Source: a virus
Taxonomy: Duplodnaviria > Heunggongvirae > Uroviricota > Caudoviricetes
Strand: one strand, 5' to 3'
IMG/VR virus record: IMGVR_UViG_3300025466_001444
DNA length: 64,000 nt
The translations under genes and the position numbers were made by a program. The first letter of the stretch is position 1, and every line of letters starts with the position of its first letter. The notes beneath the pieces were generated by a model. It saw only the letters and a list, made by a program, of their open reading frames with translations. It searched no databases and was not told where the DNA came from. This document shows positions 662 to 62,996 of this stretch, in pieces.

Positions 662-1267
662 TTATATATTTTTTCTACCTTTAATCCAACCATCAGGTAT
701 ATGATTGTCGGATACTTTTTTATTATTAAATCCGTCCGTTATCCAATAACTACCATACTGTGAATTTGTTATTCCTATATTTTTAAATTTTCTAGAATCT
801 CTCATTTTTTGTTTTGTTTCTTCTGTATGTTTTTTTCCTAGAAAAGCTTTGTTATTTTTTTTAATAATTGATATTTTTTGTTTTGTTTCTTCTGTATGTT
901 TTTTTCCACCAAAAGTTCCTTGTGGATGTAATTTAGCCGCAGCTTTTCCACCTAAACTAGCTTGATTATGTAAATTACTTAAACCTGTTCGATTTATATA
1001 CCCAAACCCACCATGTCCACCATCACAAAGATTATAACTCATTTCATTTATAACAACAAGTTCTTTTTCTTTGTTCTTCATATCTTCTTCATTATCAAAC
1101 ACATGAAGTATTTCTTTGGTAAAATTTTCAATACTATATTTTTGTATAGCTTTTTTAATAAGCTTACCAGAACCCATATATCCGTCATCAAGATTTTTTG
1201 TCTGATGCATTCCAATATAGTATTTGTTATTAATATTGTTTGTAATTTTATAAACTGTATAAAACAA
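662..1267 (-). CDS. GIY-YIG homing endonuclease (seg-like) with NUMOD3 repeats; TTG start
   Basis: N-terminus YKITNNINNKYYIGMH...GYMGSGK is a GIY-YIG motif. C-terminal FLGKKHTEETKQKM repeats are NUMOD3-like. Confidence 0.8.
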   Translation of the reverse strand: MFYTVYKITNNINNKYYIGMHQTKNLDDGYMGSGKLIKKAIQKYSIENFTKEILHVFDNEEDMKNKEKELVVINEMSYNLCDGGHGGFGYINRTGLSNLHNQASLGGKAAAKLHPQGTFGGKKHTEETKQKISIIKKNNKAFLGKKHTEETKQKMRDSRKFKNIGITNSQYGSYWITDGFNNKKVSDNHIPDGWIKGRKNI

Positions 1268-1418: not shown

Positions 1419-2303
1419 TTTAAACAATTCACTCAAATATACACTAAGGCACATATCTACTAAATTATATCTACATTCTAAATAATCAGATTTTTCTAAA
1501 TTATTTGGTATCAACGATGAAATAGGATCGCCTATTCTTCCGTTAGTTTCAATAACTTTAAAATTTATACCAGTAACATCTTTCATTACTTCAATAACTT
1601 GACGGCATGAAGTTGCATAACCAGAACCAATACATTCATACTGTGTATTTTTTGGTTTGTCAATTGCTTTAACAATAGCTTCTGTCAAATCCAATATATG
1701 AATATAATCTCTTAAACATGTTCCATCTTTAGTATCATAATTAGTACCAAATAAATGCATATATGGTCTAGTACCTACCGCAGTTTCTGCAGCAATTCTA
1801 ATTAAGTGGGTTGCTTTACCAATTTGACCAAACGTTCCATTATTGCCAGCAACATTGAAGAATCGAAAGATTGTGTATTCTGTTTCTTTTTCTTTTGCAT
1901 GTTCTTTAATAATACTTTCTGCTATGAGTTTTGATTGAGCATAAGGGGAAGAAAATGGATCAAATGCAGCTGCAGTAGATGCAAAGATAAAATTATCTGT
2001 AGGTGCATATTTTAAGATATTTTTTACACCGATTAAATTTGTTTTAACTTGATCCCATGGTTTGTAAATAGATTCTGATACATCTATTAAACCAGCAAGA
2101 TGCACAACTGCATCATAACTTCCCAAATAATTATCAGTTCTAATATCACCAAAAATATTTTTTCTGACATATGGTAATATATCATTAGATGAGGGTTTAA
2201 TGTCAAGTGAATCGACTACATATCCACATTCGGCTAATCTCTTAATCGTATGTGAACCAATATAGCCATATCCACCTGTCACTAATACTTTTTTCATCAT
2301 CAA
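1404..2303 (-). CDS. NAD-dependent epimerase/dehydratase (UDP-glucose 4-epimerase GalE-like)
   Basis: N-terminal VLVTGGYGYIGSH Rossmann motif and a YAQSK catalytic YxxxK. 299 aa. Confidence 0.75.
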   Translation of the reverse strand: MMMKKVLVTGGYGYIGSHTIKRLAECGYVVDSLDIKPSSNDILPYVRKNIFGDIRTDNYLGSYDAVVHLAGLIDVSESIYKPWDQVKTNLIGVKNILKYAPTDNFIFASTAAAFDPFSSPYAQSKLIAESIIKEHAKEKETEYTIFRFFNVAGNNGTFGQIGKATHLIRIAAETAVGTRPYMHLFGTNYDTKDGTCLRDYIHILDLTEAIVKAIDKPKNTQYECIGSGYATSCRQVIEVMKDVTGINFKVIETNGRIGDPISSLIPNNLEKSDYLECRYNLVDMCLSVYLSELFKRKNN

Positions 2304-3007
2304 ACTTTTTTCATTTTTTGTTTTGCCTCTTCAGAATGTGTTTTTCCTAAAAAAGATGGCGGTGGTTTCATTAATCTACCTTTAATATAACCTAAAATAA
2401 TAAATTTGTCGAGTTCATCTTTATGAATTTTTTTATCTTCATTTCCATTAGTAATCCAACAAGTACCATATTGAGAATTTTTTGATCCTATTAAATTTTT
2501 AGATTTTTTAGAATTTCTCATTTTTTGTTTTGTCTCTTCAGAATGTTTTTTTCCTAAAAAAGATGGAGGAGGTTTCATTAACCCTTTTTCATGTCTTAAT
2601 TTTGTTTTCTCACTTAGTTTAATTTTTACGAAATCTATTTGCGAAGAATTTGATACTCCATATTTTTCTTTAAGTGCAATATTAGTAGCAATTCTACCTT
2701 TTAATACCCAATCTTTTTTTTCAGGTTGTTTATTGATATAACTAAATCCACCATGTCCACCATCACAAAGATTATAACTCATTTCATTTATGACAACAAG
2801 TTCTTTTTCTTTGTTCTTCATATCTTTTTCATTATCAAATATGTGAAGAATATCTTTGGTAAAGTTTTCAATACCATATTTTTTTATAGCTCTTTTAATA
2901 AGTTTACCAGAACCCATATATCCATCTTCTAAATTAGATGTTTTGTGCATTCCGATATAATATTTTTGATTTATATTATTTGTAATTTTATATATTGTAT
3001 AGAACAT
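2300..3007 (-). CDS. GIY-YIG homing endonuclease (paralog of 662..1267) with NUMOD3 repeats
   Basis: MFYTIYKITNNINQKYYIGMH...GYMGSGK motif. Repeated GKKHSEETKQKM and PPPSFLGK segments. Confidence 0.8.
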   Translation of the reverse strand: MFYTIYKITNNINQKYYIGMHKTSNLEDGYMGSGKLIKRAIKKYGIENFTKDILHIFDNEKDMKNKEKELVVINEMSYNLCDGGHGGFSYINKQPEKKDWVLKGRIATNIALKEKYGVSNSSQIDFVKIKLSEKTKLRHEKGLMKPPPSFLGKKHSEETKQKMRNSKKSKNLIGSKNSQYGTCWITNGNEDKKIHKDELDKFIILGYIKGRLMKPPPSFLGKTHSEEAKQKMKKV

Positions 3008-7094: not shown

Positions 7095-7661
7095 TTATTT
7101 ATTCAGTTTAATCTGAATAGTTTCACTTATAGGAACTTGACGAACATACTCGCCATCAGATTTACGATTTGCCCAAGGTTTCAAAGGATACTCTAAAATC
7201 TTGCGACTGTCAATAAGAACTGCTCTAGTACATTCTTTATTTAATTGAACATATGATATTTGATATTTAGGATGAAGATTGAAAGGAATTTTCTTTGTAA
7301 AACTTTCTTCCCGTCTCCATTGATGATCTTTGCGCTCAATACAATTAATTTCACGGAAAGGGAAATTTTTATCTCCTTGCCAATTTCCATGGCGAACTTC
7401 AATTTCCCAACAATGAACGACTTGTTCTTTATTATCTAAAGTTAAAAGATCAATACCATGAACATTAGGATTATCAATGGTGCGAAATTCTTCAAATTTT
7501 TTGTTGAGAAATTCTTTCATGGCATCACGCCCAAGTTGGTCATACTGAATGTGATCGGCACGATCAAATTTTTTGATGACCCCAATCATTCCACGCCGTT
7601 CTGCTTCACCCATTTGCACCTCCATTTTATCTTTTATATCACATGTCAAAGGTAATTGCAA
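7095..7661 (-). CDS. hypothetical protein (188 aa; start may be internal Met)
   Basis: ORF only. A possible D...EIEVR nuclease-like motif is a weak call. Confidence 0.45.
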   Translation of the reverse strand: MQLPLTCDIKDKMEVQMGEAERRGMIGVIKKFDRADHIQYDQLGRDAMKEFLNKKFEEFRTIDNPNVHGIDLLTLDNKEQVVHCWEIEVRHGNWQGDKNFPFREINCIERKDHQWRREESFTKKIPFNLHPKYQISYVQLNKECTRAVLIDSRKILEYPLKPWANRKSDGEYVRQVPISETIQIKLNK

Positions 7662-8470
7662 TACTCAAATGCGTTTTTAAATGACTCATTTTCCATTAAA
7701 TTAACTGCTTGTGTCATCAAATGGTTATATTCTGTCACATGTTCTTTATTTGTTAAAAGATAATGCAGTCCACGTTTTTTTTGTTTTTCAACCTCTGTTA
7801 CAAGTGGTCCAAATTGTCTAATTCTTTTATATGTAGAAGGATTCCACGGAGAATATTTGTATTTTAATGTAAAAATACTATCAGATTTTAATACGCCGGT
7901 ATTATCATTTATCATATGTCTTCCCGGTTGATAATTACCATTATGTTGATTATGGTAATATCTTCCATACAAAATATCATATTGATTATTTTGTAATCCA
8001 TTAATCAAATCTGTTGCAGTATAATTAGAAATCATACCATGATGTTTTTGTTCAAACAAAGTTTTATTATAATTAGGCAAAATTTCTGGTTCTAAATCAA
8101 CCATACACACGCCATATGTCTTAAGATATCTATAACCGGCAAGAGATGCATTTACATCTTCAAGAGACATAGGAGTAAAGAAAAATTCAGTTAATGTAAG
8201 AGCTATTTTAAATCCTTCTACGGATTGTTCATATTCTATAACTTCTCTATCTACTGATTCTGTTTCATAATATTGATTTTTGCTATCAACAATTAACCAA
8301 TTAGGAGGACAAAGTTCTTTACATATTTCAACAGAACGATCAGTCGAATGATAGTTTATCATTATACCGTTATCAAATAATTTTGAATGATGTTTAATCC
8401 ACCAAGGAAGAAAATATTCTTCATTATAAAAATGTGTGATAACTGTATTCATTAAACTAATCCTAGACAA
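7646..8470 (-). CDS. putative glycosyltransferase (GT-A/GT2- or GT92-like), tandem paralog 1
   Basis: THFYNEEYFLPWWIKHH...INYHSTDRS motif shared with the next two ORFs. Confidence 0.55.
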   Translation of the reverse strand: MSRISLMNTVITHFYNEEYFLPWWIKHHSKLFDNGIMINYHSTDRSVEICKELCPPNWLIVDSKNQYYETESVDREVIEYEQSVEGFKIALTLTEFFFTPMSLEDVNASLAGYRYLKTYGVCMVDLEPEILPNYNKTLFEQKHHGMISNYTATDLINGLQNNQYDILYGRYYHNQHNGNYQPGRHMINDNTGVLKSDSIFTLKYKYSPWNPSTYKRIRQFGPLVTEVEKQKKRGLHYLLTNKEHVTEYNHLMTQAVNLMENESFKNAFEYCNYL

Positions 8471-9258
8471 TAATCATATGCGTTCAAAAATGATGTATCT
8501 GATCTTAAATCATATGCCGTCATTAAAAAATGATTATATAATATTTGATGTTGAAGTTCTGGTTTTTTGTGTAAAGAAGAAATATCATTTGGCAATTTAG
8601 AACCAAACTGTTGTACTCGTTTTATTGTTGTTTCGTTCCATGGCGAATATTTATATTTTAAAGTAAATACATTTGATGCACCACATTCTGTTCCTTCTAA
8701 AATACGATGTCTACCAGTTCCATATTTTCCAAATGGTTGATTATGGTAATACCTGCCGTACATAACATTATATGGGTCCATTCCCCATGGAGAATTTGGA
8801 ATTGCATAACCAGAAATCATTCCATGACATTTTTGTACAAATAAAGGAGCAGCATGAGTTGGCAAATTATATGGATCAACATCAACCATACACACGCCCC
8901 ATAACTTAACATAATCAACATTTCTATATAAAAGAAATTTGTTAAGTTCGCTTAAAGGTTTTGGAGTCAATAAAAATTCTGTTGTTGTAAGAGTCAATTT
9001 AAACCCTTCTACGGAATTTTCATAATATTTAATTTCTTGATCCAAAGGGTCTGGGGAAAAATCATCATTAACTGTGTTAACAATTTTCCAATGTTTAGGA
9101 CAAAGTTCTTTACATATTTCAACAGAACGATCAGTCGAATGATAGTTTATCATTATACCGTTATCAAAAAGTTTTGAATGATGATCAATCCACCAAGGAA
9201 GAAGATATTCTTCATTGTGAAAATGGGTAAGAACTGTGTTCAAACTAAACTCATACAA
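8452..9258 (-). CDS. putative glycosyltransferase, tandem paralog 2
   Basis: Similar over its full length to paralogs 1 and 3. Confidence 0.55.
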   Translation of the reverse strand: MYEFSLNTVLTHFHNEEYLLPWWIDHHSKLFDNGIMINYHSTDRSVEICKELCPKHWKIVNTVNDDFSPDPLDQEIKYYENSVEGFKLTLTTTEFLLTPKPLSELNKFLLYRNVDYVKLWGVCMVDVDPYNLPTHAAPLFVQKCHGMISGYAIPNSPWGMDPYNVMYGRYYHNQPFGKYGTGRHRILEGTECGASNVFTLKYKYSPWNETTIKRVQQFGSKLPNDISSLHKKPELQHQILYNHFLMTAYDLRSDTSFLNAYDYCLGLV

Positions 9259-10046
9259 TAATTATATGCATTCAAAAATGATGTATCTGATCTTAAATCA
9301 TATGCAGTTGATAAAAAATGATTATAAACATTTGTATGTTCATCTTCTGATTGCATATGAGGAAGACCTTTATTAGAATTCAAATCATTTTGTGGTATTT
9401 TATTTTTAAATTGCTGTACTCGCTTTATTGTTGTGTCGTTCCATGGCGAATATTTGTATTTTAAAGTAAATACATTTGATACACCAGCTTGATTCATACT
9501 ATGAACTGTATGTCTACCAGAACCATATTTACCAAATGGTTGATTATGATAATATCTACCATATAACCCTTTATAATAATCAAGGTGTGGATCAAAAGAA
9601 GGACCAACATAATCTTTAATCATTCCATGATATTTTTGTGCAAACAAGGGCATATCATGTGTCGGTATATTTTCTGGATCAATATCTACCATACACACAC
9701 CCCATGTTTTTAAATACTCAACATTTCTTTGTAAAAAATATTTGTTAAGATCATTTAAAGGAGATGGGGCAAATAAAAATTCTGTTGTTGTAAGAGTCAA
9801 TTTAAACCCTTCTACAGAATTTTCATAATATTTAATTTCTAAATCTACATAATCAGCTGAGAAATCATCATTAACTGTATTGACAATTTTCCAGTGCTTA
9901 GGGCAAAGTTCTTTACAAATTTCTAATGATCTATCTGTAGAATGATAATTGATCATGATACCATTATCAAACAGTTTTTTGTGATGGTCAATCCACCATG
10001 GCAACATATATTCTTCATTATAAAAATGGGTAAGAACTGTGTTCAT
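9240..10046 (-). CDS. putative glycosyltransferase, tandem paralog 3
   Basis: Similar over its full length to paralogs 1 and 2. Confidence 0.55.
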   Translation of the reverse strand: MNTVLTHFYNEEYMLPWWIDHHKKLFDNGIMINYHSTDRSLEICKELCPKHWKIVNTVNDDFSADYVDLEIKYYENSVEGFKLTLTTTEFLFAPSPLNDLNKYFLQRNVEYLKTWGVCMVDIDPENIPTHDMPLFAQKYHGMIKDYVGPSFDPHLDYYKGLYGRYYHNQPFGKYGSGRHTVHSMNQAGVSNVFTLKYKYSPWNDTTIKRVQQFKNKIPQNDLNSNKGLPHMQSEDEHTNVYNHFLSTAYDLRSDTSFLNAYNYCMSLV

Positions 10047-10925: not shown

Positions 10926-11543
10926 TCAACTACTATTTTTAGGATAGGGCATTATCTTATATTTCAAACTCTGTAACAATTCTTTCTTTCTCTTTCCCTT
11001 CGCATTCACAAACACATACCTGTGTTTTCTTGGTCTAGGCTTGAGAGAGAACTTATCGCCATAAAGTTCTTTTAATTCCTTTGAGGTGTATTTATCTGCA
11101 ATTGTCTGACAATGCCTATCAATACCTTCAACAACCCAGTTCGTTCTTTTAGCAGATAGTCCCGTATAATACCAGTTTGTTGCCTGATATACAATACCTA
11201 AATGTCCTTGTTCTATCTCAGCATATGATACAACAATCTCCTTACCACATTGTTTTATTGTATTCCCTATCAAGAAACTTTCACCATTCCTTGGTACTGA
11301 ATCACAAACCCATAACCTAGTAAGCTCTACTACATTGTTTACATTTTCATCACCAGCAATTCCTCTCCTTAGAGGTGCAGATGATGGTGTACCATATATA
11401 ACAACACCTTTGCATTCATCATCCAAAAATAATCCAAATGCAATACTACAAGGTGCTTTTCTATGAAGATAATGCTTCTCAACAATTATCTTCATAGCAG
11501 TTTGATAATCAATTCTCTTGATGAGATAGTTCTCAAGAGCCAT
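10926..11543 (-). CDS. hypothetical protein (205 aa)
   Basis: ORF. Conserved HYLHRKAP motif of unknown family. Confidence 0.5.
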   Translation of the reverse strand: MALENYLIKRIDYQTAMKIIVEKHYLHRKAPCSIAFGLFLDDECKGVVIYGTPSSAPLRRGIAGDENVNNVVELTRLWVCDSVPRNGESFLIGNTIKQCGKEIVVSYAEIEQGHLGIVYQATNWYYTGLSAKRTNWVVEGIDRHCQTIADKYTSKELKELYGDKFSLKPRPRKHRYVFVNAKGKRKKELLQSLKYKIMPYPKNSS

Positions 11544-14871: not shown

Positions 14872-15981
14872 TTACTCCCAAAATTGATCTAATGTATTTC
14901 GTTTTTCAACTTGCCAACCAATCGCATCTAAAATGGTTTTAATAGGCTCAACGAATGACTTAGAATACTGTAGCTCATAATCAATGTACTTGTCAAGGTC
15001 CAATTGACGAGGAAGATTATGATGACATGCAATAACATTTTCTTTGATTGGATTTGGCATTTTCATATAACAGAACTTGATCTTATCACCATCTTGGATA
15101 AAGGGATAACGATTCCCCAGATTTTCATTCCTTAGAAGATTATTATATACAAGTGCTGCACGAACATGCATTGGTGTCCCTGACTTATATATATCTTGCT
15201 TGTTGGACCACTTAGAAAGATTCTTACAACCACGAGGAAATGCAACTTCTTCAAACGAAAGCTTCTTGAATTCCTGACGAAAATCAGCAATAAATTTAAT
15301 CATATCATCTTCTGTCTTGGACATGATTACGCCCATAGCTTTTTTAATATTATCTCGACAAGCTTGTGGTGTGGATGAACGAACAGCTTCGATGCCCATC
15401 ATTTTCAACTTAGGTTCGCTGTATTGAACACCTTCGTTATTCCATACATTCAAGATATAACGTTTCTTTGCAGTCCAAATTCCCTTACTAGCAATTGATT
15501 CACGCTTCATCTGCATCTTCTGTGCATACGCATTCATCATTACTGCTAGTTCTTGATAACATTTGTCAATGAATGGCTGAACCTTTTGTTCGCAGAAAGC
15601 ATCAACAGCACCAACAATAAATGGCGCATCGTCAGTGTTGAGAAGCTTTACCATCTCAGCCATCTTCACATAGATAGAATCAGTATCAGATGCAATTACA
15701 TAATCAACTTCCTTTGTCTTGCATACCTTATTCATAAACTCATTCATCTTCTTTTCAATCCACTTGATTGAAAGCTGACCAGAAAGAGTGATCGAAGTAG
15801 CAAGATTGTCGTCATACCAACGAAAATATTCGTTAGACAACGCACCATATGCTGAGTTGAGTTGAATTTTCTTTGCAAGTTGAAGATTGTGGGATTGAGA
15901 TATTTTTTTAATTAAATTTTCTCTATGCTCTATCAACTCCTGATCCGTCATCTTTTCTATGTCTAGCTTTTGCAGCATCAC
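14872..15981 (-). CDS. 43: DNA polymerase (family B, gp43-like) C-terminal fragment (palm motif B/C, thumb)
   Basis: KIQLNSAYGALSN (motif B, KxxxNSxYG) and a YVIASDTDS-like motif C. The N-terminus overlaps the HNH ORF. Confidence 0.85.
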   Translation of the reverse strand: MMLQKLDIEKMTDQELIEHRENLIKKISQSHNLQLAKKIQLNSAYGALSNEYFRWYDDNLATSITLSGQLSIKWIEKKMNEFMNKVCKTKEVDYVIASDTDSIYVKMAEMVKLLNTDDAPFIVGAVDAFCEQKVQPFIDKCYQELAVMMNAYAQKMQMKRESIASKGIWTAKKRYILNVWNNEGVQYSEPKLKMMGIEAVRSSTPQACRDNIKKAMGVIMSKTEDDMIKFIADFRQEFKKLSFEEVAFPRGCKNLSKWSNKQDIYKSGTPMHVRAALVYNNLLRNENLGNRYPFIQDGDKIKFCYMKMPNPIKENVIACHHNLPRQLDLDKYIDYELQYSKSFVEPIKTILDAIGWQVEKRNTLDQFWE

Positions 15982-16432
15982 TCAACTTCCTTTTCCATTC
16001 ATCAGTAAATACTCTACCCTTACGTCCAACTTTAGCATTATGTTCTGGACTATGCAACTTTCCTTTCAATGCAGAAGAAATATTATTAATATGATCTTCT
16101 GATAATTTTTTCCCTGTCTGTGCTTTTCTATTATTTTCTACATGAGTAATAGAATGTTTTTTTCCTTTTTTAGCATCACTCATTTTTTTTCTGGTTTCTG
16201 AACTTCTAACTTTTCCAGTATTTGCTTTTCTAACTGCTTCACGTTGAACTTCTTCACTTGGTATTCTTCCACTCAATCCTTTCCAAGCAATTTCATCCTG
16301 CCAACGACCATATTTTTCAAACAATAATTTATGTGCTTCTGCATGTTGTTCAACAGTCAAATATTGAATATTTGAAGGATCATTTGTTCCTCCAACGTGT
16401 TTTGGTATTATATGATGTTTGTGTAATAACAT
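15923..16432 (-). CDS. HNH homing endonuclease with NUMOD-like repeats, inserted inside the polymerase gene
   Basis: HHIIPKHVGGTNDPSNIQYLTVEQHAEAH is an HNH motif. Lys-rich repeats of the form GKK..S..H. Confidence 0.75.
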   Translation of the reverse strand: MLLHKHHIIPKHVGGTNDPSNIQYLTVEQHAEAHKLLFEKYGRWQDEIAWKGLSGRIPSEEVQREAVRKANTGKVRSSETRKKMSDAKKGKKHSITHVENNRKAQTGKKLSEDHINNISSALKGKLHSPEHNAKVGRKGRVFTDEWKRKLSDAAKARHRKDDGSGVDRA

Positions 16433-16462
16433 AAAGGGCTCCCATTGTTAGCTACCTGCATG

Positions 16463-17941
16463 TTATTTATATAACATTTTCCTCTTTTTCATTTCAGATT
16501 CAATTATTTCCAAATCTTTTTTGGCTTCAATCATGCGCTCCTTAAATACGACACGATCATTGTACATCTTCTCCATCAGAGTAGGAAGGAAGCCTTGCTT
16601 ATCCTTACGATAGATAGCACCATTAGCAGCAATAGCATGTTCACAATTATGAGACCATTCACTATTAATCAATTCATCAACAGATGAGAATTTAGGCAAT
16701 ATAGCCACAAAAGTTTCAGGACTTACATTATATTGCATAATAAGATGAGGATATAGAGAATTCAAATCGAATGATACAACCCAATCATGCATTCCAAGAA
16801 TTGGGTCTTTTACATATGCGCCAACAATCTGTTCATCCTTATGCGTCTTCTTATTCTGAGGAATAACAATGCGCTGATTAATAAGATAGTTGTGAATGAT
16901 TACATCCCAGAGACGCACAGAAGTAAACGCATCAGAGAAGTTGACCTTCGCATCATACGCAATAGCAAATACTTGTTCGATCAGTTTCAGCTTGTCATCA
17001 AGGCGACCAACAAGATCAACGTCCTTGATATTGTACTCAATGAAAAGCTGATAATTCTTCTTATACAAATCGAACAGAGATTCATATTCAGAATAATCAA
17101 GTTTGCGTTCGCCAAGTTCAATGTGGGCGATGTGATCCAGACGATAGGATTCCTGATTAGTGAATGTGAACTTCCTGTAGAGTTGTAGATAATCAAGTAC
17201 TGTGATGCCAACAGGAATATACGATTTCTGTTCAACACCATATTTCTCTACAGAACGTTCCTCAATGATGCCCCAAGGTGAAATCTTCTTAGCCATTTCA
17301 TTTCCAAGAAGCCTACGGACACGATTGATGATATACGGAATATCAAAGTACTCCACATTCCAACCAGTCACAACATCAGGCTGAAACCACTTCATACGCC
17401 ATAGGTCAAGGAATTTGATGAGCAAAGATTCTTCATCTTTACACTTGAAGTACTTCACATTTTCATTGGTGTTTACGAACTCCCCACACCCAAGAACAAC
17501 GTAGATGTCATCCTTCTTCATTGTGATGGCAGTTATTTCTTTTTCAGCAGTTTCAATATCGGGAAACCCTTCATCAGCTGCAACCTCAATATCGATATTA
17601 ACGATAGAAATTTGCTTAGGGTCATAATCAATTTCGCCGGGATAATAATCATTGATGAATGGGTAGACGAACTGTGTCATCCCATAGATATCAAAGTTGG
17701 AAACATCGCCATATTGCTTCACATAATCACGAGCATCCTTTGGAGAATCAAAGTCGATACGCTTGACAGGATCGCCCTTTAGGTTCCTGAATTCAATCTC
17801 ATCCACATTGTTTGGATTATTGTTGTGGACAAAGAGGTACGGCTTGCAAGGCAGCTTTTCGAATACACGTTTACCACCATCATAGCCACGAAGCAGAATG
17901 GTATCGAAGTGAAGATGTGCATGGGTGTAAAATTTGCTCAT
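16463..17941 (-). CDS. 43: DNA polymerase (family B, gp43-like) N-terminal fragment (N-terminal, exonuclease and motif A region)
   Basis: Exo motifs (FDIE-like IDIEV) and an SFDLNSLYPH-like motif A (VVSFDLNSLYPHLI). The ORF ends in a stop before motif B. Confidence 0.85.
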   Translation of the reverse strand: MSKFYTHAHLHFDTILLRGYDGGKRVFEKLPCKPYLFVHNNNPNNVDEIEFRNLKGDPVKRIDFDSPKDARDYVKQYGDVSNFDIYGMTQFVYPFINDYYPGEIDYDPKQISIVNIDIEVAADEGFPDIETAEKEITAITMKKDDIYVVLGCGEFVNTNENVKYFKCKDEESLLIKFLDLWRMKWFQPDVVTGWNVEYFDIPYIINRVRRLLGNEMAKKISPWGIIEERSVEKYGVEQKSYIPVGITVLDYLQLYRKFTFTNQESYRLDHIAHIELGERKLDYSEYESLFDLYKKNYQLFIEYNIKDVDLVGRLDDKLKLIEQVFAIAYDAKVNFSDAFTSVRLWDVIIHNYLINQRIVIPQNKKTHKDEQIVGAYVKDPILGMHDWVVSFDLNSLYPHLIMQYNVSPETFVAILPKFSSVDELINSEWSHNCEHAIAANGAIYRKDKQGFLPTLMEKMYNDRVVFKERMIEAKKDLEIIESEMKKRKMLYK

Positions 17942-18815: not shown

Positions 18816-19277
18816 ATGGCTGACGAATCAAAAGCACCAAGTGAAGATTTTGTTACTTCGAAATGGAGACCCTTTATGGGTTGGACATATATGGCTATAT
18901 GTTCCTTTGATTTTATTTTTGGACCAATTATGAATGTAGTATTTTCCGTCATAACAAAAACACAATTAGTCCCATGGAAGTCACTCACACTTGATAATGG
19001 TGGTTTATTTCATCTTTCAATGGGTGCAGTTCTAGGTGTAGCTGCATATGGAAGAACACAAGAAAAAATTTCAAAGATTGATAATGGAATTCCATTACCG
19101 GGAACAGGAATGGCTTCATCTCCAATAGTATCTGAAACTACGATAACTGATACTTCAGTCAATGTAACTCCAATTCCATCTGCTCCCACACCAGTTTCCA
19201 CAGTAGTTGCTACTCCAGCACCTCAACCAGTTTCTACCCCAGTTGCTGTTTCATCAACACGTAAAAGATTTATTTAA
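18816..19277 (+). CDS. membrane protein with Pro/Thr/Val-rich C-terminal tail
   Basis: Two transmembrane segments, then PIPSAPTPVSTVVATPAPQPVSTPVAV. RBS GAGGAA upstream. A terminator follows. Confidence 0.55.
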   Translation: MADESKAPSEDFVTSKWRPFMGWTYMAICSFDFIFGPIMNVVFSVITKTQLVPWKSLTLDNGGLFHLSMGAVLGVAAYGRTQEKISKIDNGIPLPGTGMASSPIVSETTITDTSVNVTPIPSAPTPVSTVVATPAPQPVSTPVAVSSTRKRFI

Positions 19278-19796: not shown

Positions 19797-20027
19797 TCAT
19801 TCATCTTCTGGCTCCGTATACTGAATCAAAGTTGCATTGCGTATTCTGTATCCACGATCATGCCAATCTTGAATCTTTCTTGAGATATCTGGGTCGTCAT
19901 ATGTGCTTTGACAATGACGAACCCATGCTTCCATAGCAGTAAGACCAAAGGTTTGATAGCTCATTCCCCACCATGCAGCTTTGCTTACTGGAGGTTTGAT
20001 CACAAACCCATAGGTCTCTTTTTTCAT
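19797..20027 (-). CDS. hypothetical protein (76 aa)
   Basis: ORF. Confidence 0.45.
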   Translation of the reverse strand: MKKETYGFVIKPPVSKAAWWGMSYQTFGLTAMEAWVRHCQSTYDDPDISRKIQDWHDRGYRIRNATLIQYTEPEDE

Positions 20028-20266
20028 TATACCATACCAATTGACTGCATATAAAGATCAAGAAGTGTCTCTTCTTCCTGACGCTGTTCCTTTGTCTTAC
20101 GACGAATTGAAATGATCTTACGGACAATCTTTGTTTCATAGCCAGCAGACTTCACTTCAGTGTAAATCTCTTTAATATCTTCAGAGATGGCTCGCTTGTC
20201 TTCATCTAGTCGCTCGATACGATCAATGTATGCAAGCAACTGATCCTTATTCCCATTGTCACTCAT
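20027..20266 (-). CDS. gapR: GapR/DUF2312-family nucleoid-associated protein homolog (start taken at internal Met; track ORF extends to 20356)
   Basis: LLAYIDRIERLDEDKRAISEDIKEIYTEVKSAGYETKIVRKIISIRRKTKEQRQEEETLLDLYMQSIG aligns along its length with Caulobacter GapR. Confidence 0.75.
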   Translation of the reverse strand: MSDNGNKDQLLAYIDRIERLDEDKRAISEDIKEIYTEVKSAGYETKIVRKIISIRRKTKEQRQEEETLLDLYMQSIGMV

Positions 20267-20324
20267 AATCAATATCCTTTTATTAAGAGAAAGTAGTGGG
20301 GGAGATTTCTCTCCCCCGTTTTTG

Positions 20325-21263
20325 TTAGGCGTCAGCAAACTCAACTGCCTTTTCAAGAGCTAGAACCTTGCGATTCCGATTAGGACCATACCATGCAGAC
20401 TGCAAACGAGTCTCAGGATTATGACCAAGAACATGGTCAGTGGTATAGGTTACGGCATTAAAAGCTTGCCACCATGAACCCTTACCAAATTCTGCTCCCG
20501 GTTGAGTATCCAAAACTTCCATGACCTGTGTAGCAGGACGAGAAAGAATCTTCTTATTCTCCTTAGACATAACAGGAAAAATGGTCTGAAGATACTCAGT
20601 AAGGTTTTCCTCATTGTACTGGCGAGAAGAAAGAAACTCAGCGGTTTCCTTATAGGTATCCATCTTGTTATGAGCGATGCCCAAAGTACGCCTTACCATA
20701 TCGGGATCAAAAGCACGACGATGGTTGAGCTTAACCATAAGGTCACTAGAAGTACCAAGAGCAAGAGTAAGAGTATTATTACAGACGACACGAATCGGAG
20801 TAAAGCGGATATCAATAGACTTGCCATACTCATGAGGATTACTAAACAGAAGATAAGAGTCAACACGGTCGCCTCCAAGAATCTCAAAGCTATCCTTCAC
20901 CTTCGCAAGAGCCCAAACGTTCTTGCCTTCACGAAGAGAACCAGCGGTATGCATTTCCATATCACCAGCCATCACGAAGTCATTGAAGAACTCAAAAGCC
21001 TCATGATTCTGAACAGGCTTCCAGTCAGAAGAAACCATAGTCAAAATCTTGTCGTCAGAAGAACGAACCAGAGCTTGAGTATCTGTTACAATCTTCTTGC
21101 CCTTACGGGTGATAAAAGTTGGAACTTTTTCGACTTCCCAGTCCAAACCAGCTTCCTTGAGCATCTGGTCTGGAGTCAGATCATGATGAACGCTTTTGCC
21201 AAGACCATGCCAAGGAGTTTCACCAGCGTATGCCATTGTTTCGACGATGTGTGCCATAATCAA
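20325..21263 (-). CDS. DUF932 (phage/plasmid-related TIGR03299-like) protein
   Basis: N-terminus MAHIVETMAYAGETPWHGLG is characteristic of DUF932. Confidence 0.65.
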   Translation of the reverse strand: MIMAHIVETMAYAGETPWHGLGKSVHHDLTPDQMLKEAGLDWEVEKVPTFITRKGKKIVTDTQALVRSSDDKILTMVSSDWKPVQNHEAFEFFNDFVMAGDMEMHTAGSLREGKNVWALAKVKDSFEILGGDRVDSYLLFSNPHEYGKSIDIRFTPIRVVCNNTLTLALGTSSDLMVKLNHRRAFDPDMVRRTLGIAHNKMDTYKETAEFLSSRQYNEENLTEYLQTIFPVMSKENKKILSRPATQVMEVLDTQPGAEFGKGSWWQAFNAVTYTTDHVLGHNPETRLQSAWYGPNRNRKVLALEKAVEFADA

Positions 21264-21355
21264 GTTCCTTTCAGCTCATGAGTCCATCGACTCAACATAA
21301 TCATATTACTCTAGGAGGATTGTGGAGTCAAGCGTTTTTTTAAATATTTTTACTC

Positions 21356-21937
21356 TCAACTGCCATCATCATCTTCTTTTTCTTCCTGATACGCCTCAAT
21401 ATGCATTTCATAATCATCTTCTAGGTTAAATTGCTCAATAAGGTGATCAGGAATATCATCACGCCAATCATCATCTTCAAAATCAACATTGTAACAATTA
21501 TCTCCATCTTCGCTGGTATATTCACCGACAAAAGATAAACCTTCTTCACGATACTGAAGCTCGACAATAAAACCAAGTTCTGTGAGTGCTTCCATGGCTG
21601 TCACAGGCGGCGACCATGCGGATTGGAACCATCCTGTAGCGGATTTGGTCTCAGGATCATATTCCAGTTCGCCATCCGCAATTTCCCACTTTGTCCCCCA
21701 ATTTTCGATGCGCCATGAGTACCAACTTGCATGACCAAACTTTTCGATGTTCGCAGCTTCCTGAGCTTCACGGCGAGAATTAAACCCATCGCCAATAGAA
21801 ACTTCAACAAGAAGTTCTGGAGGACAAGGAACAAACTCATTCAAGAAATTTCCATCCTTAAATGCCTTATCAAGACGCTCCATCATTGCAGAGTCTTCAT
21901 GTGAAATAGAAATTGAATTATCGCACCAGTTAGGCAT
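21356..21937 (-). CDS. hypothetical acidic protein with N-terminal MPNWC motif (DUF1281-like)
   Basis: MPNWCDNSISI start and an acidic C-terminus. Confidence 0.45.
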   Translation of the reverse strand: MPNWCDNSISISHEDSAMMERLDKAFKDGNFLNEFVPCPPELLVEVSIGDGFNSRREAQEAANIEKFGHASWYSWRIENWGTKWEIADGELEYDPETKSATGWFQSAWSPPVTAMEALTELGFIVELQYREEGLSFVGEYTSEDGDNCYNVDFEDDDWRDDIPDHLIEQFNLEDDYEMHIEAYQEEKEDDDGS

Positions 21938-21948
21938 AGTTTCTCTCC

Positions 21949-22182
21949 TCAGTTGGTATATTTGAAGTAACAGTCAACAATATCCTTGATCTGTTGATCT
22001 GCATCAGTGTAGTATTCTTCGTCCATAATTGCAAGAAGAATTTCTTCATAATCATCTGTCGAAAGATGATTCTTCAAGACCTTTAGATACTTTTCCCCTG
22101 TATCTGTACGTTTCACTTCTTCTTCAAGTGGATCGACAGAAAATTCTACAATCTTTGGAAATGTAATAACATTGTTCATCAT
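21949..22182 (-). CDS. hypothetical protein (77 aa)
   Basis: ORF. Confidence 0.4.
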   Translation of the reverse strand: MMNNVITFPKIVEFSVDPLEEEVKRTDTGEKYLKVLKNHLSTDDYEEILLAIMDEEYYTDADQQIKDIVDCYFKYTN

Positions 22183-22649
22183 TCAGCTCCTGATTCACGA
22201 TAAACATATTCGATTGTTGGTATGTACGGAAACTCGATGTAAACTCGACTATCTCTGCTAGTGTAATGGGATTTATGTTGTACGCCATCTCCGTCAGTAT
22301 ACCAATCCCAAAATACTTTACCTTCACCATCATATGCTCGACCATCAGCATCTTTGAACACATGACCGCAGCGTTTATTCTGATACTTCATATCACCATT
22401 ATAATCAAGTTCATTCCATTCCCAATCTTCACCAGTCAACGGAACGATTGGCTTGTACATCGCAAGCTTGCTGAACATATCAATTGTGTATGGAGCGGTT
22501 GTACCAGAATGTCCTTCATTATCGAATACCTTCAGTAGATCAAGGACGTGATTGCAAATCATTTCCTGCATTTCATCATTGAACTTACCGTTCTCGTCAA
22601 CCCATCCAGCTGCACGAAACTCTGTCATTGCGTGTGTAGCATAACTCAT
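22179..22649 (-). CDS. hypothetical protein (156 aa)
   Basis: ORF overlapping its neighbours by ATGA. Confidence 0.45.
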   Translation of the reverse strand: MSYATHAMTEFRAAGWVDENGKFNDEMQEMICNHVLDLLKVFDNEGHSGTTAPYTIDMFSKLAMYKPIVPLTGEDWEWNELDYNGDMKYQNKRCGHVFKDADGRAYDGEGKVFWDWYTDGDGVQHKSHYTSRDSRVYIEFPYIPTIEYVYRESGAE

Positions 22650-46768: not shown

Positions 46769-46815
46769 TTAATTTCTCCTTTAGGAAAGTTATTTGTAAT
46801 ATTATTTATAATTTT

Positions 46816-47862: not shown

Positions 47863-47907
47863 TAGATATTCTCCTTAAAAATTTTATATGTAAATTATTT
47901 ATACTTT

Positions 47908-61073: not shown

Positions 61074-61103
61074 TTATAGCTTTCTTTTGTTTTTATATAC
61101 TAT

Positions 61104-62996
61104 TTATAGCTCTTTACTTTTTCTTTTATTTGCTACTCTAAACTGTGCAAGACGTTGTTCTGCATCATTACGAACGAACATTGAAGATTTATCTGTTGAT
61201 GCTTTTAAAGCATGTTCCTCAGTTGCATTGGGATGATTTACTGCTTTTCTTCTTACAACGTCATCTGGATCATTTAATGCTTTAGAAATATGTTCTGCAT
61301 TTGCATTTGGATTAGATATTGCTGTTCTTCTTACAGCCTCATCTGGATCATTTAATGCTTTAGAAATATGTGCAGATGTTGCATTTGGATGAGCTACCGC
61401 TGATCTTTTTATACCATCTTCTTCATTTGGATCATTTAATACTTTAGAAATATGTTCTGCAGTTGCTTTAGGATTTTGAATAGCATGTGATCTGACAAAT
61501 GATTTATCATCATTTAATGCTTTTGTAATATGCTCTGTTGTTGCTTCTGGTCTTCTTACAGCAATTCCTCTTATTCTTGTGTCTACATCATTTAATGCTT
61601 TTGTTATATGTTCTGATGATAATTTAACATGAGGATTTTGAATAGCAGCTTGTCTGATATCAGAATGATTGTGAGCATCCAAAGCTTTATTAATATGATC
61701 TGGTGTTGCATTAGGATTAGATACTGCAAATGCTTTTTCAGGACCACTAGTACCATTTAAAACTTTAGTAATTTCTTTTGCTGGTAATTTTGGATGTTGT
61801 AATGCAGCAATTCTTACATTTCTATCTTCACCCCATTTATTATTTAATACATGGGTAAGATGTTCTGCTGTTGCATTTTTATTTTTTAATGCAGCTTTTC
61901 TTACATAATCATCACCATCATTATGCAATACATGTGTAATATGTTCTGCTGTTGCATTAGGATGTTGAATCGCAGCTGCTCTAATTCCAATATGATCAAT
62001 TCCTAAAGCTTTTGTGATATGCTCTGCCGTTGCATTTGGATGTTGAATAGCAGCAAGTTGTACTTGAGCTTGTTCATCATTTAATCCTTTTGTAATATGT
62101 TCATGTGACACATTACTATTATCAAAAGCTGCGGCTCTGGTATTAGGGTCTTTACTTTTTAATGAAGCATTAGGACTGGCAATCACATCTTTTTGATCAT
62201 CATTATATAATTTTTTATTTTTTCTGTATATTTTATCATCTTTAACAGGAAAATTTGTTTCAGCCCATTTTTTTACTGTATGTCCAAATGCATGATCAGA
62301 AGTTCCATATTGTGATTCTTCTGGTCTGAGAATGGTATCTTTTTTATCTTCCGATTGAAATGGTTTCAATGCTATTCTTGCAAGAGGTTGTTTAGCTTCT
62401 TTGTCATGTTCGTGTACAAGATAAGCAACGTGTGTTCCTTGTTGAACATCATGCTTTAGATAATGACTATTACTACCAGCACCAATACCTTTTTTAGCTC
62501 CTGTTGTACTCATACTCATACATGAACGCCAACCTCTGTCAGTAGACATTCCAGCAACATCATGTGGGTGACGAGAAATAACTACGCCTAGTTTACCAGA
62601 ATTGGAAGCAGCCCTTTTAGGATCGTTGTTAAATGTGCTAACTAATTCTTTTGAAGCACCTGTTGCAGCTAATGCTTTACCAATACGAATTTCTCTGTTA
62701 TACTTAGGCTCAATTGCTTTATTACCTTTATAATCAGTTATCTTATAGCCATGCTTTTCCAGATGCGCTTTAACATCTGGATGAGGTTCTACTGGCTTAT
62801 TGTCATCTGGATGTTCTAGAGGGATATATGTTCTATCTTGTCCTTCTGGAATTGCATCTTTAGAAATTTTCTTAGCCTTTGTGTTTTCACCCCATGAATC
62901 AACAACTTTTTTTTGAGCATCGTTCAATTCTTCGTTTAGAAGGGTATTATAACCTGTAATAGCATTTTCTTTGATAAACTGTTTAAACATTAACAT
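61104..62996 (-). CDS. 630-aa protein with N-terminal globular domain and about 14 tandem about-31-aa HEAT-like/PBS-lyase-like (or LRV) repeats
   Basis: Repeated ...NPNATAEHITKALND.D..VRR.A... units, which are also about-93-bp DNA tandem repeats. Confidence 0.6.
   Translation of the reverse strand: MLMFKQFIKENAITGYNTLLNEELNDAQKKVVDSWGENTKAKKISKDAIPEGQDRTYIPLEHPDDNKPVEPHPDVKAHLEKHGYKITDYKGNKAIEPKYNREIRIGKALAATGASKELVSTFNNDPKRAASNSGKLGVVISRHPHDVAGMSTDRGWRSCMSMSTTGAKKGIGAGSNSHYLKHDVQQGTHVAYLVHEHDKEAKQPLARIALKPFQSEDKKDTILRPEESQYGTSDHAFGHTVKKWAETNFPVKDDKIYRKNKKLYNDDQKDVIASPNASLKSKDPNTRAAAFDNSNVSHEHITKGLNDEQAQVQLAAIQHPNATAEHITKALGIDHIGIRAAAIQHPNATAEHITHVLHNDGDDYVRKAALKNKNATAEHLTHVLNNKWGEDRNVRIAALQHPKLPAKEITKVLNGTSGPEKAFAVSNPNATPDHINKALDAHNHSDIRQAAIQNPHVKLSSEHITKALNDVDTRIRGIAVRRPEATTEHITKALNDDKSFVRSHAIQNPKATAEHISKVLNDPNEEDGIKRSAVAHPNATSAHISKALNDPDEAVRRTAISNPNANAEHISKALNDPDDVVRRKAVNHPNATEEHALKASTDKSSMFVRNDAEQRLAQFRVANKRKSKEL

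What the first reader, a model, noticed from the sequence alone, without database searches (positions are those of the whole stretch)
20027..21937. Alphaproteobacterial-type early module: GapR homolog next to DUF932 and MPNWC-type proteins
ORF 20027..20266 aligns along its length with Caulobacter GapR (DUF2312): LLAYIDRIERLDEDKRAISEDIKEIYTEVKSAGYETKIVRKIISIRRKTKEQRQEEETLLDLYMQSIG. The adjacent genes are DUF932 (MAHIVETMAYAGETPWHGLG start) and an MPNWC-start acidic protein, a trio typical of leading regions of alphaproteobacterial conjugative elements and phages. This suggests an alphaproteobacterial host. Together with the low GC, SAR11/Pelagibacter is a candidate.
Basis: partly seen in the sequence, partly recalled or inferred. 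Interest (0 to 1): 0.55.

Follow-up and report, generated by a model that had tools for sequence, protein, structure and literature searches.

The report
GapR DNA clamp in T4-like phage
An uncultured T4-like phage carries a well-conserved copy of GapR, the ring-shaped DNA-binding protein of Alphaproteobacteria, inside its replication gene cluster; this is a new example of something already seen in other phages, and its two neighbouring genes are not a functional unit with it.

Summary
On the minus strand lie a 79-aa GapR homolog (20027-20266; Pfam PF10073, 95 bits; E 5e-22 to solved GapR structures), a DUF932/TIGR03299 protein (20325-21257) and an MPNWC-start protein of the YubB/Api92 (DUF1281) fold (21356-21937).

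The window is a T4-like myovirus, not a conjugative element. The three genes sit in the variable stretch between regA/clamp-loader genes and Hsp20/gene 43.

GapR keeps all six DNA-channel basic residues and the E-R salt bridge. It is under purifying selection (dN/dS 0.05-0.26) and has phage-like codon GC.

An alphaproteobacterial host is plausible but unproven. SAR11 gets no specific support.

The trio is not a module:
- Of 80 related phage loci that carry DUF932, 7 have GapR and 8 have the YubB-like gene.
- None of 80 cellular GapR loci has either neighbour.
- The plasmid hit sets do not overlap.

The likely role is a clamp on AT-rich or overtwisted phage DNA that helps replication and transcription through host topoisomerases. 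This is inferred, not shown. I rate it a new member of a known kind, of modest interest.

The parts
20027..20266 (-). GapR-family gene (79 aa), predicted tetrameric DNA clamp. ATG start with an AAGGA ribosome-binding site 8 nt upstream. Its stop codon overlaps the ATG of the next ORF (TAATG).
   Evidence: PF10073 95 bits. NF010247 101 bits, above the 94 cutoff. PDB 6cfy E 5e-22 and a gapless alignment to Caulobacter GapR 17-88. Channel residues K24, K32, K39, K46, R49, R56 and the E18-R55 pair are retained (with residue roles from PMC7373187). dN/dS 0.05-0.26. Sequence read.
20298..20317 (-). G+C-rich hairpin (GGGGGAGA-GAAA-TCTCCCCC) just after the DUF932 stop codon. It is a terminator-like or mRNA-stabilising element that separates DUF932 from GapR.
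   Evidence: Terminator scan and sequence. Present in L001, L002 and L005; L005 has a longer stem that still pairs. At the same position L087 has a different G-rich hairpin followed by T8.
20325..21257 (-). DUF932/TIGR03299 protein (310 aa), function unknown. Widespread and highly conserved in related T4-like phages.
21303..21331 (-). Sigma-70-like promoter candidate (TTGACT-17-TAATAT) about 45 nt upstream of the DUF932 start.
   Evidence: Consensus scan and sequence. Consensus match only; the total number of promoter-like sites is not above chance (20 found against 22.6 expected).
21356..21937 (-). MPNWC-start, acidic-tailed protein (193 aa) of the YubB/Api92 (DUF1281) ferredoxin-like family, function unknown.
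   Evidence: PF18406 28.4 bits. N-terminal positions M1 P2 N3 W4 C5 N7 are invariant in 47 homologs. AF2 pLDDT 95. Foldseek 2ijr E 1e-4. BFVD 'YubB ferredoxin-like' E 4e-19, TM 0.85.
19797..20027 (-). Small ORF (76 aa, phrog_31704), probably translationally coupled to GapR, function unknown.
   Evidence: PHROG hit E 3.6e-15. Start overlaps the GapR stop. Found in L003 and L004 next to GapR, and in some loci without GapR.
22179..22649 (-). Tad3-family ORF (156 aa), a candidate Thoeris inhibitor, two genes upstream of the trio in the same variable stretch.
   Evidence: PF25185 114 bits, E 4.6e-33. Tad3 is described as a ThsB-binding inhibitor in PMC13402655.

Best explanation
The 79-aa ORF is a functional GapR-family protein encoded by an uncultured T4-like myovirus. 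By core-gene similarity the phage resembles the aquatic T4-like phages classified as Kyanoviridae. Window GC is 35%.

The gene lies in the variable stretch of the replication gene cluster, between regA/gp62/gp44/gp45 and Hsp20/gene 43. It is probably expressed before late genes.

By analogy with Caulobacter GapR, it should assemble into a dimer-of-dimers ring whose basic channel grips the phosphate backbone of AT-rich or overtwisted DNA. On the rapidly replicating, AT-rich phage genome this would stiffen DNA ahead of forks and RNA polymerase. It would also promote removal of positive supercoils by the host's gyrase and topo IV, helping phage replication and transcription elongation.

The gene was captured from the alphaproteobacterial gene pool, or from phages of that pool, long enough ago to have taken on phage base composition. 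It has since been gained or lost among close relatives.

DUF932 and the YubB-like gene are separate units, not partners of GapR. DUF932 is a widespread, highly conserved gene of these phages, with its own promoter-like site and a terminator-like hairpin. The YubB-like gene is a sporadic accessory gene.

Shown here: family membership, residue conservation, purifying selection, genomic context and distribution. Inferred: oligomeric state, DNA preference, topoisomerase stimulation, timing of expression and host.
For: Identity:
- PF10073 95 bits; NF010247 above its cutoff; E 5e-22 to solved GapR structures.
- Gapless alignment to Caulobacter GapR 17-88. All six channel residues stay basic: K34/K42/K49/K56/K59/K66 correspond to K24/K32/K39/K46/R49/R56. 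The structural pair E28-R65 corresponds to E18-R55. Residue roles come from PMC7373187 and PMC6853979.

The gene is maintained:
- dN/dS is 0.05-0.26 across nine phage copies, with dS near saturation.
- About 42 clusters at 69-100% identity, some on contigs of up to 290 kb, then a gap to 61% or less.
- GC3 is 37.5%, like the phage polymerase gene (39.6%). Two of the closest non-clade homologs that were sampled lie on DNA of 63% GC (L177, a temperate phage) and 67% GC (L175, a bacterial chromosome).

Context:
- Gene 43, Hsp20, regA, gp44/45/62-type neighbours, UvsW, UvsY and MCP identify a T4-like phage.
- No TATAAATA late-promoter motif lies between 16472 and 31549, although the motif is enriched elsewhere on the coding strand.

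Known mechanism of the family: GapR binds AT-rich and overtwisted DNA, stiffens it, supports polymerase elongation and stimulates type II topoisomerases (PMC13408042; PMC6853979).

Alphaproteobacterial link:
- The top 80 species genomes with GapR are nearly all Alphaproteobacteria, as are all 24 plasmid records.
- 13 of 16 phage records with GapR have alphaproteobacterial hosts.
- The best cultured-phage matches of the YubB-like and Tad3-like genes are also alphaproteobacterial phages.
Against: - No biochemical or expression data exist for this protein.
- It scores 87.9 against a cutoff of 140 on NCBI's equivalog model for Caulobacter GapR. It is a family member, not a demonstrated functional equivalent.
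- It lacks the N-terminal extension found in most cellular homologs.
- Whether the phage has its own type II topoisomerase is unknown, because only 64 kb of a genome that is probably about 200 kb is in the window.
- The host is unknown. Three 'Microcystis phage' records are the best phage-database matches, although the one I fetched has 70% GC over 7 kb, which fits Microcystis poorly.
- GapR is present in only 7 of 80 related loci, so it is dispensable for the lineage.
Confidence: 0.55

Rival explanations
1. The protein works like phage T4 DsbA. That is a small double-stranded-DNA-binding protein that enhances transcription from some late promoters. Here it would fill the DsbA role in a T4-like lineage that has no recognisable dsbA.
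For: - Iyer et al. 2021 (PMC7824862) report that T4 DsbA is a GapR-family homolog predicted to ring dsDNA.
- T4 DsbA hits PF10073 weakly (E 0.026).
- Profile-profile comparison of GapR against a DsbA alignment gives E 2.2e-4, probability 45%, over 49 columns.
- DsbA homologs detectable by tblastn appear confined to phages of Gammaproteobacteria: the ten commonest organism names are all gammaproteobacterial genera or phages of them, and every listed record with a taxonomy line is Straboviridae. No cyanophage or Kyanoviridae name appears among the names shown.
- The gene sits beside the clamp and clamp-loader genes on which T4 late transcription depends.
Against: - No PF11126 hit for the window protein at E <= 0.01.
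- BLASTP of the two proteins finds nothing.
- The homology signal is weak.
- The position differs from T4, where dsbA lies between gene 33 and rnh.
- The protein is far closer to cellular GapR (50-59% identity) than to DsbA.
- It is present in only 7 of 80 related loci, which is odd for a late-transcription factor.
Confidence: 0.15
2. It is a host-takeover factor. The phage protein mixes with, or out-competes, the host's own essential GapR, or coats host DNA. This would disturb host chromosome replication and partition and redirect resources to the phage.
For: - GapR is essential or near-essential in Caulobacter and acts as a tetramer, so mixed tetramers are conceivable (PMC7373187; PMC5587793).
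- The phage copies lack the N-terminal extension of cellular homologs.
- The gene lies among small early-type ORFs, including a Tad3-family anti-defence candidate.
Against: - All DNA-binding and structural residues are intact and under purifying selection. This fits a working clamp rather than a poison subunit.
- There is no evidence that the host has GapR, because the host is unknown.
Confidence: 0.1
3. GapR, DUF932 and the YubB-like protein form one co-functional establishment or anti-defence module, equivalent to plasmid and ICE leading-region genes.
For: - DUF932 and YubB/DUF1281 families do occur on plasmids and integrated elements. That yubB lies in the F-plasmid leading region is my recollection, not tested here.
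- A Tad3-family gene lies two genes away.
- The trio is syntenic in the closest relatives L001-L005 and L087-L089.
Against: - GapR is present in 7 of 80 and YubB-like in 8 of 80 DUF932 loci.
- In L008, two other ORFs lie between DUF932 and GapR.
- A terminator-like hairpin separates DUF932 from GapR.
- None of 80 cellular GapR loci has either partner.
- The plasmid hit sets do not overlap.
- Cultured phages with GapR (RHph_I46, Cp1R7A-A1, a Bradyrhizobium phage-plasmid) have no DUF932 next to it.
Confidence: 0.07
4. The host is not an alphaproteobacterium. It could be, for example, a cyanobacterium or a methylotrophic betaproteobacterium. GapR would then be a free-standing phage DNA-architecture protein spread by phage-to-phage exchange, so it says little about the host.
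For: - Core genes are most similar to cyanomyoviruses (DNA polymerase about 50% identity), and to Melnitz (OM43 host), the Pelagibacter phage Mosig and Stenotrophomonas phage DLP6 (MCP 60-69%).
- DUF932 is closest to Melnitz.
- The gene has phage-like composition, which implies an old acquisition.
- GapR is patchy among close relatives.
Against: - Cellular GapR is essentially confined to Alphaproteobacteria (PMC5587793).
- 13 of 16 cultured-phage records with GapR infect Alphaproteobacteria. The three exceptions are doubtful, since the one fetched has 70% GC.
- The YubB-like, Tad3-like and, after Melnitz and phage C48C1, the DUF932 best cultured matches are phages of Alphaproteobacteria.
- No photosynthesis genes were found in the 64 kb.
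Confidence: 0.35

Closest known systems
Cellular GapR (UPF0335/DUF2312): Caulobacter crescentus CCNA_03428 and Bosea GapR, PDB 6cg8, 6cfx, 6cfy, 6jyk
   Same: - Same single-domain, three-helix protein of about 80 aa.
- Gapless alignment, about 50-59% identity.
- All six channel basic residues and the E-R salt bridge are retained.
   Different: - Encoded by a virulent-type T4-like phage at 35% GC, not a chromosome.
- Lacks the N-terminal extension.
- Fails NCBI's Caulobacter equivalog cutoff (87.9 against 140).
- No functional data.
GapR/DUF2312 genes in cultured phages of Alphaproteobacteria: Rhizobium phage RHph_I46 (Pootjesviridae), Azospirillum phage Cd, Sinorhizobium phage PBC5, Mesorhizobium phage Cp1R7A-A1, Erythrobacter phage R34L1
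   Same: - A phage-borne GapR among small early or replication-region ORFs.
- Already noted in the literature as a phage auxiliary gene (PMC12185513).
   Different: - Only 45-54% identical.
- Those phages are not T4-like and have 48-61% GC.
- The T4-like clade seen here forms its own group at 69-100% identity.
Phage T4 DsbA (Pfam PF11126), dsDNA-binding enhancer of late transcription
   Same: - A small helical dsDNA-binding protein of a T4-type phage.
- Reported as a distant GapR homolog (PMC7824862), with weak support here (E 0.026; hhalign E 2.2e-4).
   Different: - No direct sequence similarity and no PF11126 hit.
- Different locus: T4 dsbA lies between gene 33 and rnh.
- By the names and taxonomy lines shown, DsbA appears confined to phages of Gammaproteobacteria, all Straboviridae where a taxonomy line was seen.
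TIGR03299/DUF932 'phage/plasmid-like protein' of Methylophilales phage Melnitz and Sinorhizobium phages phiM12, phiM7 and phiN3
   Same: - 53-58% identity over the full length.
- In Melnitz it also lies next to the small heat-shock gene and the clamp genes.
   Different: - Those phages have no GapR.
- Function is unknown everywhere, and my fold search gave nothing.
YubB/Api92 (DUF1281), PDB 2ijr from Yersinia pseudotuberculosis
   Same: - Ferredoxin-like fold and MPNWC-type N-terminus.
- Foldseek probability 1.00.
- Close structural match to viral 'YubB ferredoxin-like' proteins, TM 0.85.
   Different: - Shorter (193 aa against 282), and TM to 2ijr is only 0.40.
- Has an acidic C-terminal helix.
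- Family function is unknown. The family is spread from plasmids to giant viruses, so it is not a taxonomic marker.

Membership tests
GapR / DUF2312 (PF10073, UPF0335) | Profile match above the curated threshold over the whole domain | tested here: met
   PF10073 95 bits against a 22.6 cutoff, profile positions 2-72 of 72. NF010247 101.2 against 94.
GapR / DUF2312 (PF10073, UPF0335) | Six conserved basic residues lining the DNA channel (Caulobacter K34, K42, K49, K56, K59, K66) | tested here: met
   K24, K32, K39, K46, R49, R56 in the gapless alignment. Roles from PMC7373187 and PMC6853979. Two are K-to-R changes.
GapR / DUF2312 (PF10073, UPF0335) | E28-R65 structural salt bridge | tested here: met
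   E18 and R55 are present, and both are invariant in the 47-sequence alignment.
GapR / DUF2312 (PF10073, UPF0335) | Tetramer (dimer of dimers) that encircles DNA | not testable with these tools
   No multimer prediction is available. Inferred from 50-59% identity to solved tetramers.
GapR / DUF2312 (PF10073, UPF0335) | Binds AT-rich or overtwisted DNA and stimulates gyrase and topo IV | not testable with these tools
   Biochemical property, known for Caulobacter GapR (PMC13408042).
GapR equivalog of Caulobacter (NCBIfam NF052541) | Score above the equivalog cutoff | tested here: not met
   87.9 bits against a cutoff of 140.
T4 DsbA (PF11126) | PF11126 profile match | tested here: not met
   No PF11126 hit at E <= 0.01 for the window protein. 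T4 DsbA itself scores 139.5 bits.
T4 DsbA (PF11126) | Position between rnh and gene 33 | tested here: not met
   The window gene lies between DUF932 and a small ORF, inside the regA-to-gene 43 interval. T4 and seven other phages have rnh-dsbA-33.
T4 DsbA (PF11126) | Detectable distant homology to GapR | tested here: inconclusive
   hhalign E 2.2e-4, probability 45%, 49 columns. T4 DsbA against PF10073 gives E 0.026.
DUF932 / TIGR03299 | Profile match above the curated threshold | tested here: met
   PF06067 153.9 against 23. TIGR03299 234.8 against 110.7.
YubB / Api92 (DUF1281) | DUF1281_C ferredoxin-like domain and overall fold | tested here: met
   PF18406 28.4 against 22.8. Foldseek 2ijr E 1e-4, probability 1.00, but TM only 0.40. 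BFVD YubB-like TM 0.85.
   GapR plasmids (24, all Alphaproteobacteria, 1 conjugative) and MPNWC plasmids (12, none alphaproteobacterial) do not overlap. None of 80 cellular GapR loci has DUF932 or MPNWC within 4 kb.
T4-like myovirus | T4-type replication and structural gene set in T4-like order | tested here: met
   Gene 43, regA, UvsW, UvsY and Hsp20. MCP 60-69% and polymerase about 50% identical to T4-like phages. Relatives show gp45, gp44, gp62, regA ... gene 43, uvsX, gp41. The late-promoter motif is enriched on the coding strand.

The most novel reading that the evidence does not exclude
A clade of aquatic T4-like phages that lack a recognisable dsbA has recruited a genuine alphaproteobacterial GapR into its replication cluster as the functional counterpart of T4 DsbA. 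If so, a ring-shaped sensor of overtwisted DNA would be a recurrent, convergently filled requirement of T4-type replication-coupled transcription. The long-obscure role of DsbA could then be read through GapR biochemistry: marking positive supercoils ahead of the replisome and RNA polymerase.
Probability: 0.12. Interest if true: 0.55.

Novelty: new member of a known kind. Interest (0 to 1): 0.3.

Why it matters
GapR is one of the few proteins known to read DNA overtwisting, and it is essential for replication in Caulobacter. A compact 79-aa version maintained under selection in a lytic T4-like phage shows that viruses also use this activity. It offers a minimal natural variant for biochemistry.

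It is also a moderately useful host clue for an abundant, uncultured group of aquatic T4-like phages. It gives a concrete handle on the proposed GapR-DsbA relationship.

GapR genes in phages of Alphaproteobacteria are already on record, however, so the finding extends known biology rather than changing it. The negative result is useful too: DUF932 and YubB-like genes should not be read as alphaproteobacterial or 'leading-region' markers.

Tried and rejected
- **PDB sequence searches.** DUF932 and the MPNWC protein gave nothing below E 0.2.
- **Literature on DUF932, DUF1281, Api92 and TIGR03299.** No functional study was found. One preprint reports selection on a DUF932 gene of an integrated plasmid after phage exposure.
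- **Direct BLASTP of GapR against T4 DsbA.** No similarity. Only profile methods give a weak signal.
- **Habitat of the source samples.** A search for the JGI, SRA and ENA identifiers found nothing relevant, so I could not confirm freshwater or marine origin.
- **SAR11 idea.** P0049, one of the closer cellular homologs (59% identity), is recorded on a contig of up to 1.1 Mb. The copy I could fetch lies on a 104-kb contig at 67% GC, in an ordinary bacterial neighbourhood with many regulators, unlike SAR11.
- **Papers and libraries not available.** Guo et al. 2018 and Ricci et al. 2016 are not held. The afdb50 fold library was not available.
- **Promoter scan.** The total number of sigma-70-like sites is not above chance, so 'early module' rests on individual sites and on the absence of late motifs.
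- **Recent transfer from a high-GC alphaproteobacterium.** Considered and rejected, because the gene's GC3 is phage-like.
Full report
**What is there**

All genes in this part of the window are on the minus strand.
- An AAGGA ribosome-binding site lies 8 nt upstream. The stop codon overlaps the ATG of the next small ORF.
- The longer TTG-initiated reading (109 aa) in the ORF list is not supported, because homologs are 78-80 aa.
- Upstream lie a 310-aa protein (20325-21257, MAHIVETM...) and a 193-aa protein (21356-21937, MPNWC...).

**Identity of the three proteins**

GapR:
- It matches Pfam GapR_DNA-bd across the whole profile (95 bits, E 2e-27).
- It passes NCBI's subfamily model NF010247 (101 against 94).
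- It hits solved GapR structures at E 5e-22 (Bosea, 6cfy/6cfx) and 6e-18 (Caulobacter, 6cg8).
- The alignment to Caulobacter GapR residues 17-88 has no gaps.
- The six channel lysines that contact DNA (K34, K42, K49, K56, K59, K66) and the E28-R65 structural pair are described in PMC7373187 and PMC6853979. They correspond here to K24, K32, K39, K46, R49, R56 and E18-R55, all conserved or conservatively replaced.
- It does not reach the cutoff of NCBI's Caulobacter equivalog model (87.9 against 140).

DUF932: it passes PF06067 and TIGR03299.

MPNWC protein:
- It has a marginal but above-threshold DUF1281_C hit.
- The N-terminal positions M1, P2, N3, W4, C5 and N7 are invariant in 47 homologs.
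- The AlphaFold model is confident (pLDDT 95).
- Its best PDB match is Api92/DUF1281, 2ijr (E 1e-4, TM 0.40).
- Its best viral matches are 'YubB ferredoxin-like' proteins (TM up to 0.85).

**What the surrounding element is**

The window is part of a T4-like myovirus.
- It holds a family-B polymerase of the gene 43 type, Hsp20, regA, UvsW, UvsY, MazG, peptide deformylase and eight tRNAs.
- It holds a gp23-type capsid protein that is 60-69% identical to those of cyanomyoviruses, Melnitz, the Pelagibacter phage Mosig and Stenotrophomonas phage DLP6.
- The polymerase is about 50% identical to cyanomyovirus polymerases.
- In close relatives the order is gp45, gp44, gp62, regA, small ORFs, YubB-like, DUF932, GapR, small ORFs, Hsp20, gene 43, uvsX, gp41.
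- The trio therefore sits in a variable stretch inside the replication cluster, not in a conjugative element.
- The T4 late-promoter motif TATAAATA occurs 18 times against 7.7 expected. Seventeen are on the coding strand, several of them just upstream of structural genes. None lies between 16472 and 31549.
- A TTGACT-17-TAATAT site lies about 45 nt upstream of DUF932.

Expression before the late phase is therefore plausible, though not shown.

**Is the trio a unit?**

No.
- I fetched 80 viral loci through their DUF932 gene. A GapR profile finds GapR in 7 of them, and the MPNWC profile finds that gene in 8.
- Close relatives such as L006 (DUF932 83% identical) have other genes in place of GapR. 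In L008, two unrelated ORFs separate DUF932 from GapR.
- A G+C-rich hairpin follows the DUF932 stop codon. It recurs in L001 and L002. In L005 the stem is longer and still pairs. At the same position L087 has a different G-rich hairpin followed by T8. DUF932 therefore looks like its own transcription unit.
- DUF932 is widespread and highly conserved among related phages. All 120 listed homologs, out of 7999 scored, are at least 69% identical, and several lie on 130-230 kb contigs. It also sits next to Hsp20 and the clamp genes in Melnitz, which has no GapR.
- None of the 80 best cellular GapR loci has DUF932 or the MPNWC gene within 4 kb.
- In PLSDB, GapR occurs on 24 plasmids, all alphaproteobacterial and mostly non-mobilisable. 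MPNWC homologs occur on 12 plasmids of other phyla. The two sets do not overlap.
- Cultured phages with GapR have no adjacent DUF932.

**Origin and maintenance of the phage GapR**

- The big-database search shows a tight phage clade of about 42 clusters at 69-100% identity. Some lie on contigs of up to 290 kb. Identity then drops to 61% or less.
- Pairwise dN/dS among nine phage copies is 0.05-0.26, with synonymous sites near saturation.
- The gene's GC3 (37.5%) matches phage genes. I sampled two of the closest non-clade homologs. One is a temperate phage at 63% GC and the other a bacterial chromosome at 67% GC.
- This is an old, selected resident of the phage lineage, gained or lost among relatives. 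It is not a recent pickup.
- The top 80 species genomes with GapR are nearly all Alphaproteobacteria, at 59% identity or less. This agrees with the statement that GapR homologs are exclusive to that class (PMC5587793).

**Host**

- GapR in cultured phages points to Alphaproteobacteria in 13 of 16 records.
- The three 'Microcystis phage' exceptions are doubtful. The one I fetched has 70% GC over 7 kb, while Microcystis is about 43% GC by my recollection.
- The best cultured-phage matches of the MPNWC protein are Roseobacter phage CRP-207 and Puniceispirillum phage HMO-2011.
- The best match of the Tad3-like neighbour is a Rhizobium phage.
- DUF932 is closest to Melnitz (OM43 host), then to phage C48C1 (host unknown), then to Sinorhizobium T4-like phages.
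- Together this makes an alphaproteobacterial host the best guess, at roughly 60-65%.
- Core genes give no host signal, and I found no direct link.
- SAR11 is not specifically supported. No Pelagibacter phage or genome appears in any hit list for the three proteins. The Pelagibacter phage Mosig appears only among the capsid matches, at about 60% identity, the same as cyanophages and Melnitz.

**How it most likely works**

Shown: this is a GapR-family protein with an intact DNA channel, kept by selection in a replication-gene neighbourhood.

Inferred from the family (PMC13408042; PMC6853979):
- It forms a tetrameric ring on AT-rich or overtwisted DNA.
- It stiffens that DNA.
- It helps type II topoisomerases clear positive supercoils ahead of forks and RNA polymerase.

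A 35%-GC genome replicating at T4-like rates is a natural substrate.

The rivals are a DsbA-like role in late transcription, interference with host GapR, and a co-functional trio. I think each is less likely, for the reasons given in the rival entries.

**Link to T4 DsbA**

- Iyer et al. reported T4 DsbA as a GapR homolog (PMC7824862). I tested this.
- T4 DsbA hits PF10073 at E 0.026.
- A GapR profile against an eight-member DsbA alignment gives E 2.2e-4, probability 45%, over the helix 2 and helix 3 region.
- BLASTP sees nothing.
- DsbA homologs found by tblastn carry names of gammaproteobacterial hosts in all the counts shown. Every listed record with a taxonomy line is Straboviridae. In T4 and the seven other phages I fetched, the gene lies between rnh and gene 33.
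- The window protein is not a DsbA-family member. The idea that it fills a similar niche in a lineage without dsbA remains open.

**Novelty**

Phage-borne GapR is already on record.
- RefSeq annotates 'DUF2312 domain-containing protein' in Azospirillum phage Cd and Sinorhizobium phage PBC5.
- A large virulent rhizobiophage, RHph_I46, carries one.
- A 2025 paper highlights GapR in Erythrobacter phages.

What is new is its presence as a distinct, conserved clade in T4-like phages. I rate this a new member of a known kind, of modest interest.

Noticed in passing
window 14872-17941 (-): The gene 43 DNA polymerase is split. An N-terminal 492-aa part (16463-17941) and a C-terminal part (14872-15981) flank an HNH + NUMOD3 homing-endonuclease ORF (15923-16432). 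Relatives L087-L089 have an intact 843-aa polymerase.
   Followed up: partly
window 22179-22649 (-): A Tad3-family ORF (PF25185, 114 bits), a candidate inhibitor of the Thoeris TIR protein ThsB, lies two genes upstream of the trio. Its best cultured match is Rhizobium phage RHph_I1_23 (40% identity).
   Followed up: partly
window 10926-11543 (-): A Mom-family protein (PF25680, 148 bits), suggesting a Mu Mom-like DNA base modification in a T4-like phage.
   Followed up: no
window 7646-10046 (-): Three tandem, overlapping ORFs of about 270 aa, each with a weak glycosyltransferase family 2 N-terminal hit. They look like a paralog array.
   Followed up: no
window 662-1267 and 2300-3007 (-): Two SegE-type GIY-YIG/NUMOD3 homing-endonuclease ORFs interleaved with tRNA genes. 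An NAD-dependent epimerase/dehydratase gene lies between them (1404-2303).
   Followed up: no
window, 18 sites (for example 46803-46810, 47896-47903, 61101-61108): The T4 late-promoter motif TATAAATA occurs 18 times against 7.7 expected. Seventeen are on the coding strand, several just upstream of structural genes, and none lies between 16472 and 31549.
   Followed up: partly
window 18816-19277 (+): The only sizeable plus-strand gene in this region is a GTA_holin_3TM-family membrane protein (PF11351, E 1.5e-7). It is conserved in relatives, also on the opposite strand to its neighbours.
   Followed up: no
L186 (Microcystis phage Mwe-JY25, 1-7065): This 'Microcystis phage', the best phage-database match to the GapR protein, has 70% GC over the 7 kb fetched. 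That is hard to reconcile with a Microcystis host and suggests a heterotroph from the non-axenic culture.
   Followed up: partly
L177/L178 8001-8240: The most similar GapR outside the T4-like clade (P0043, 58% identity) sits in a 63%-GC temperate phage, next to a DnaA_C-domain protein, ParB_N and an integrase. One copy comes from the same ENA sample series (KRAE22-1) as the T4-like relatives L087 and L089.
   Followed up: no
BFVD matches to the model of window 21356-21937: YubB ferredoxin-like (MPNWC) proteins also occur in giant viruses (Moumouvirus, Bodo saltans virus, Aureococcus anophagefferens virus). The family has a very wide viral distribution and no known function.
   Followed up: no
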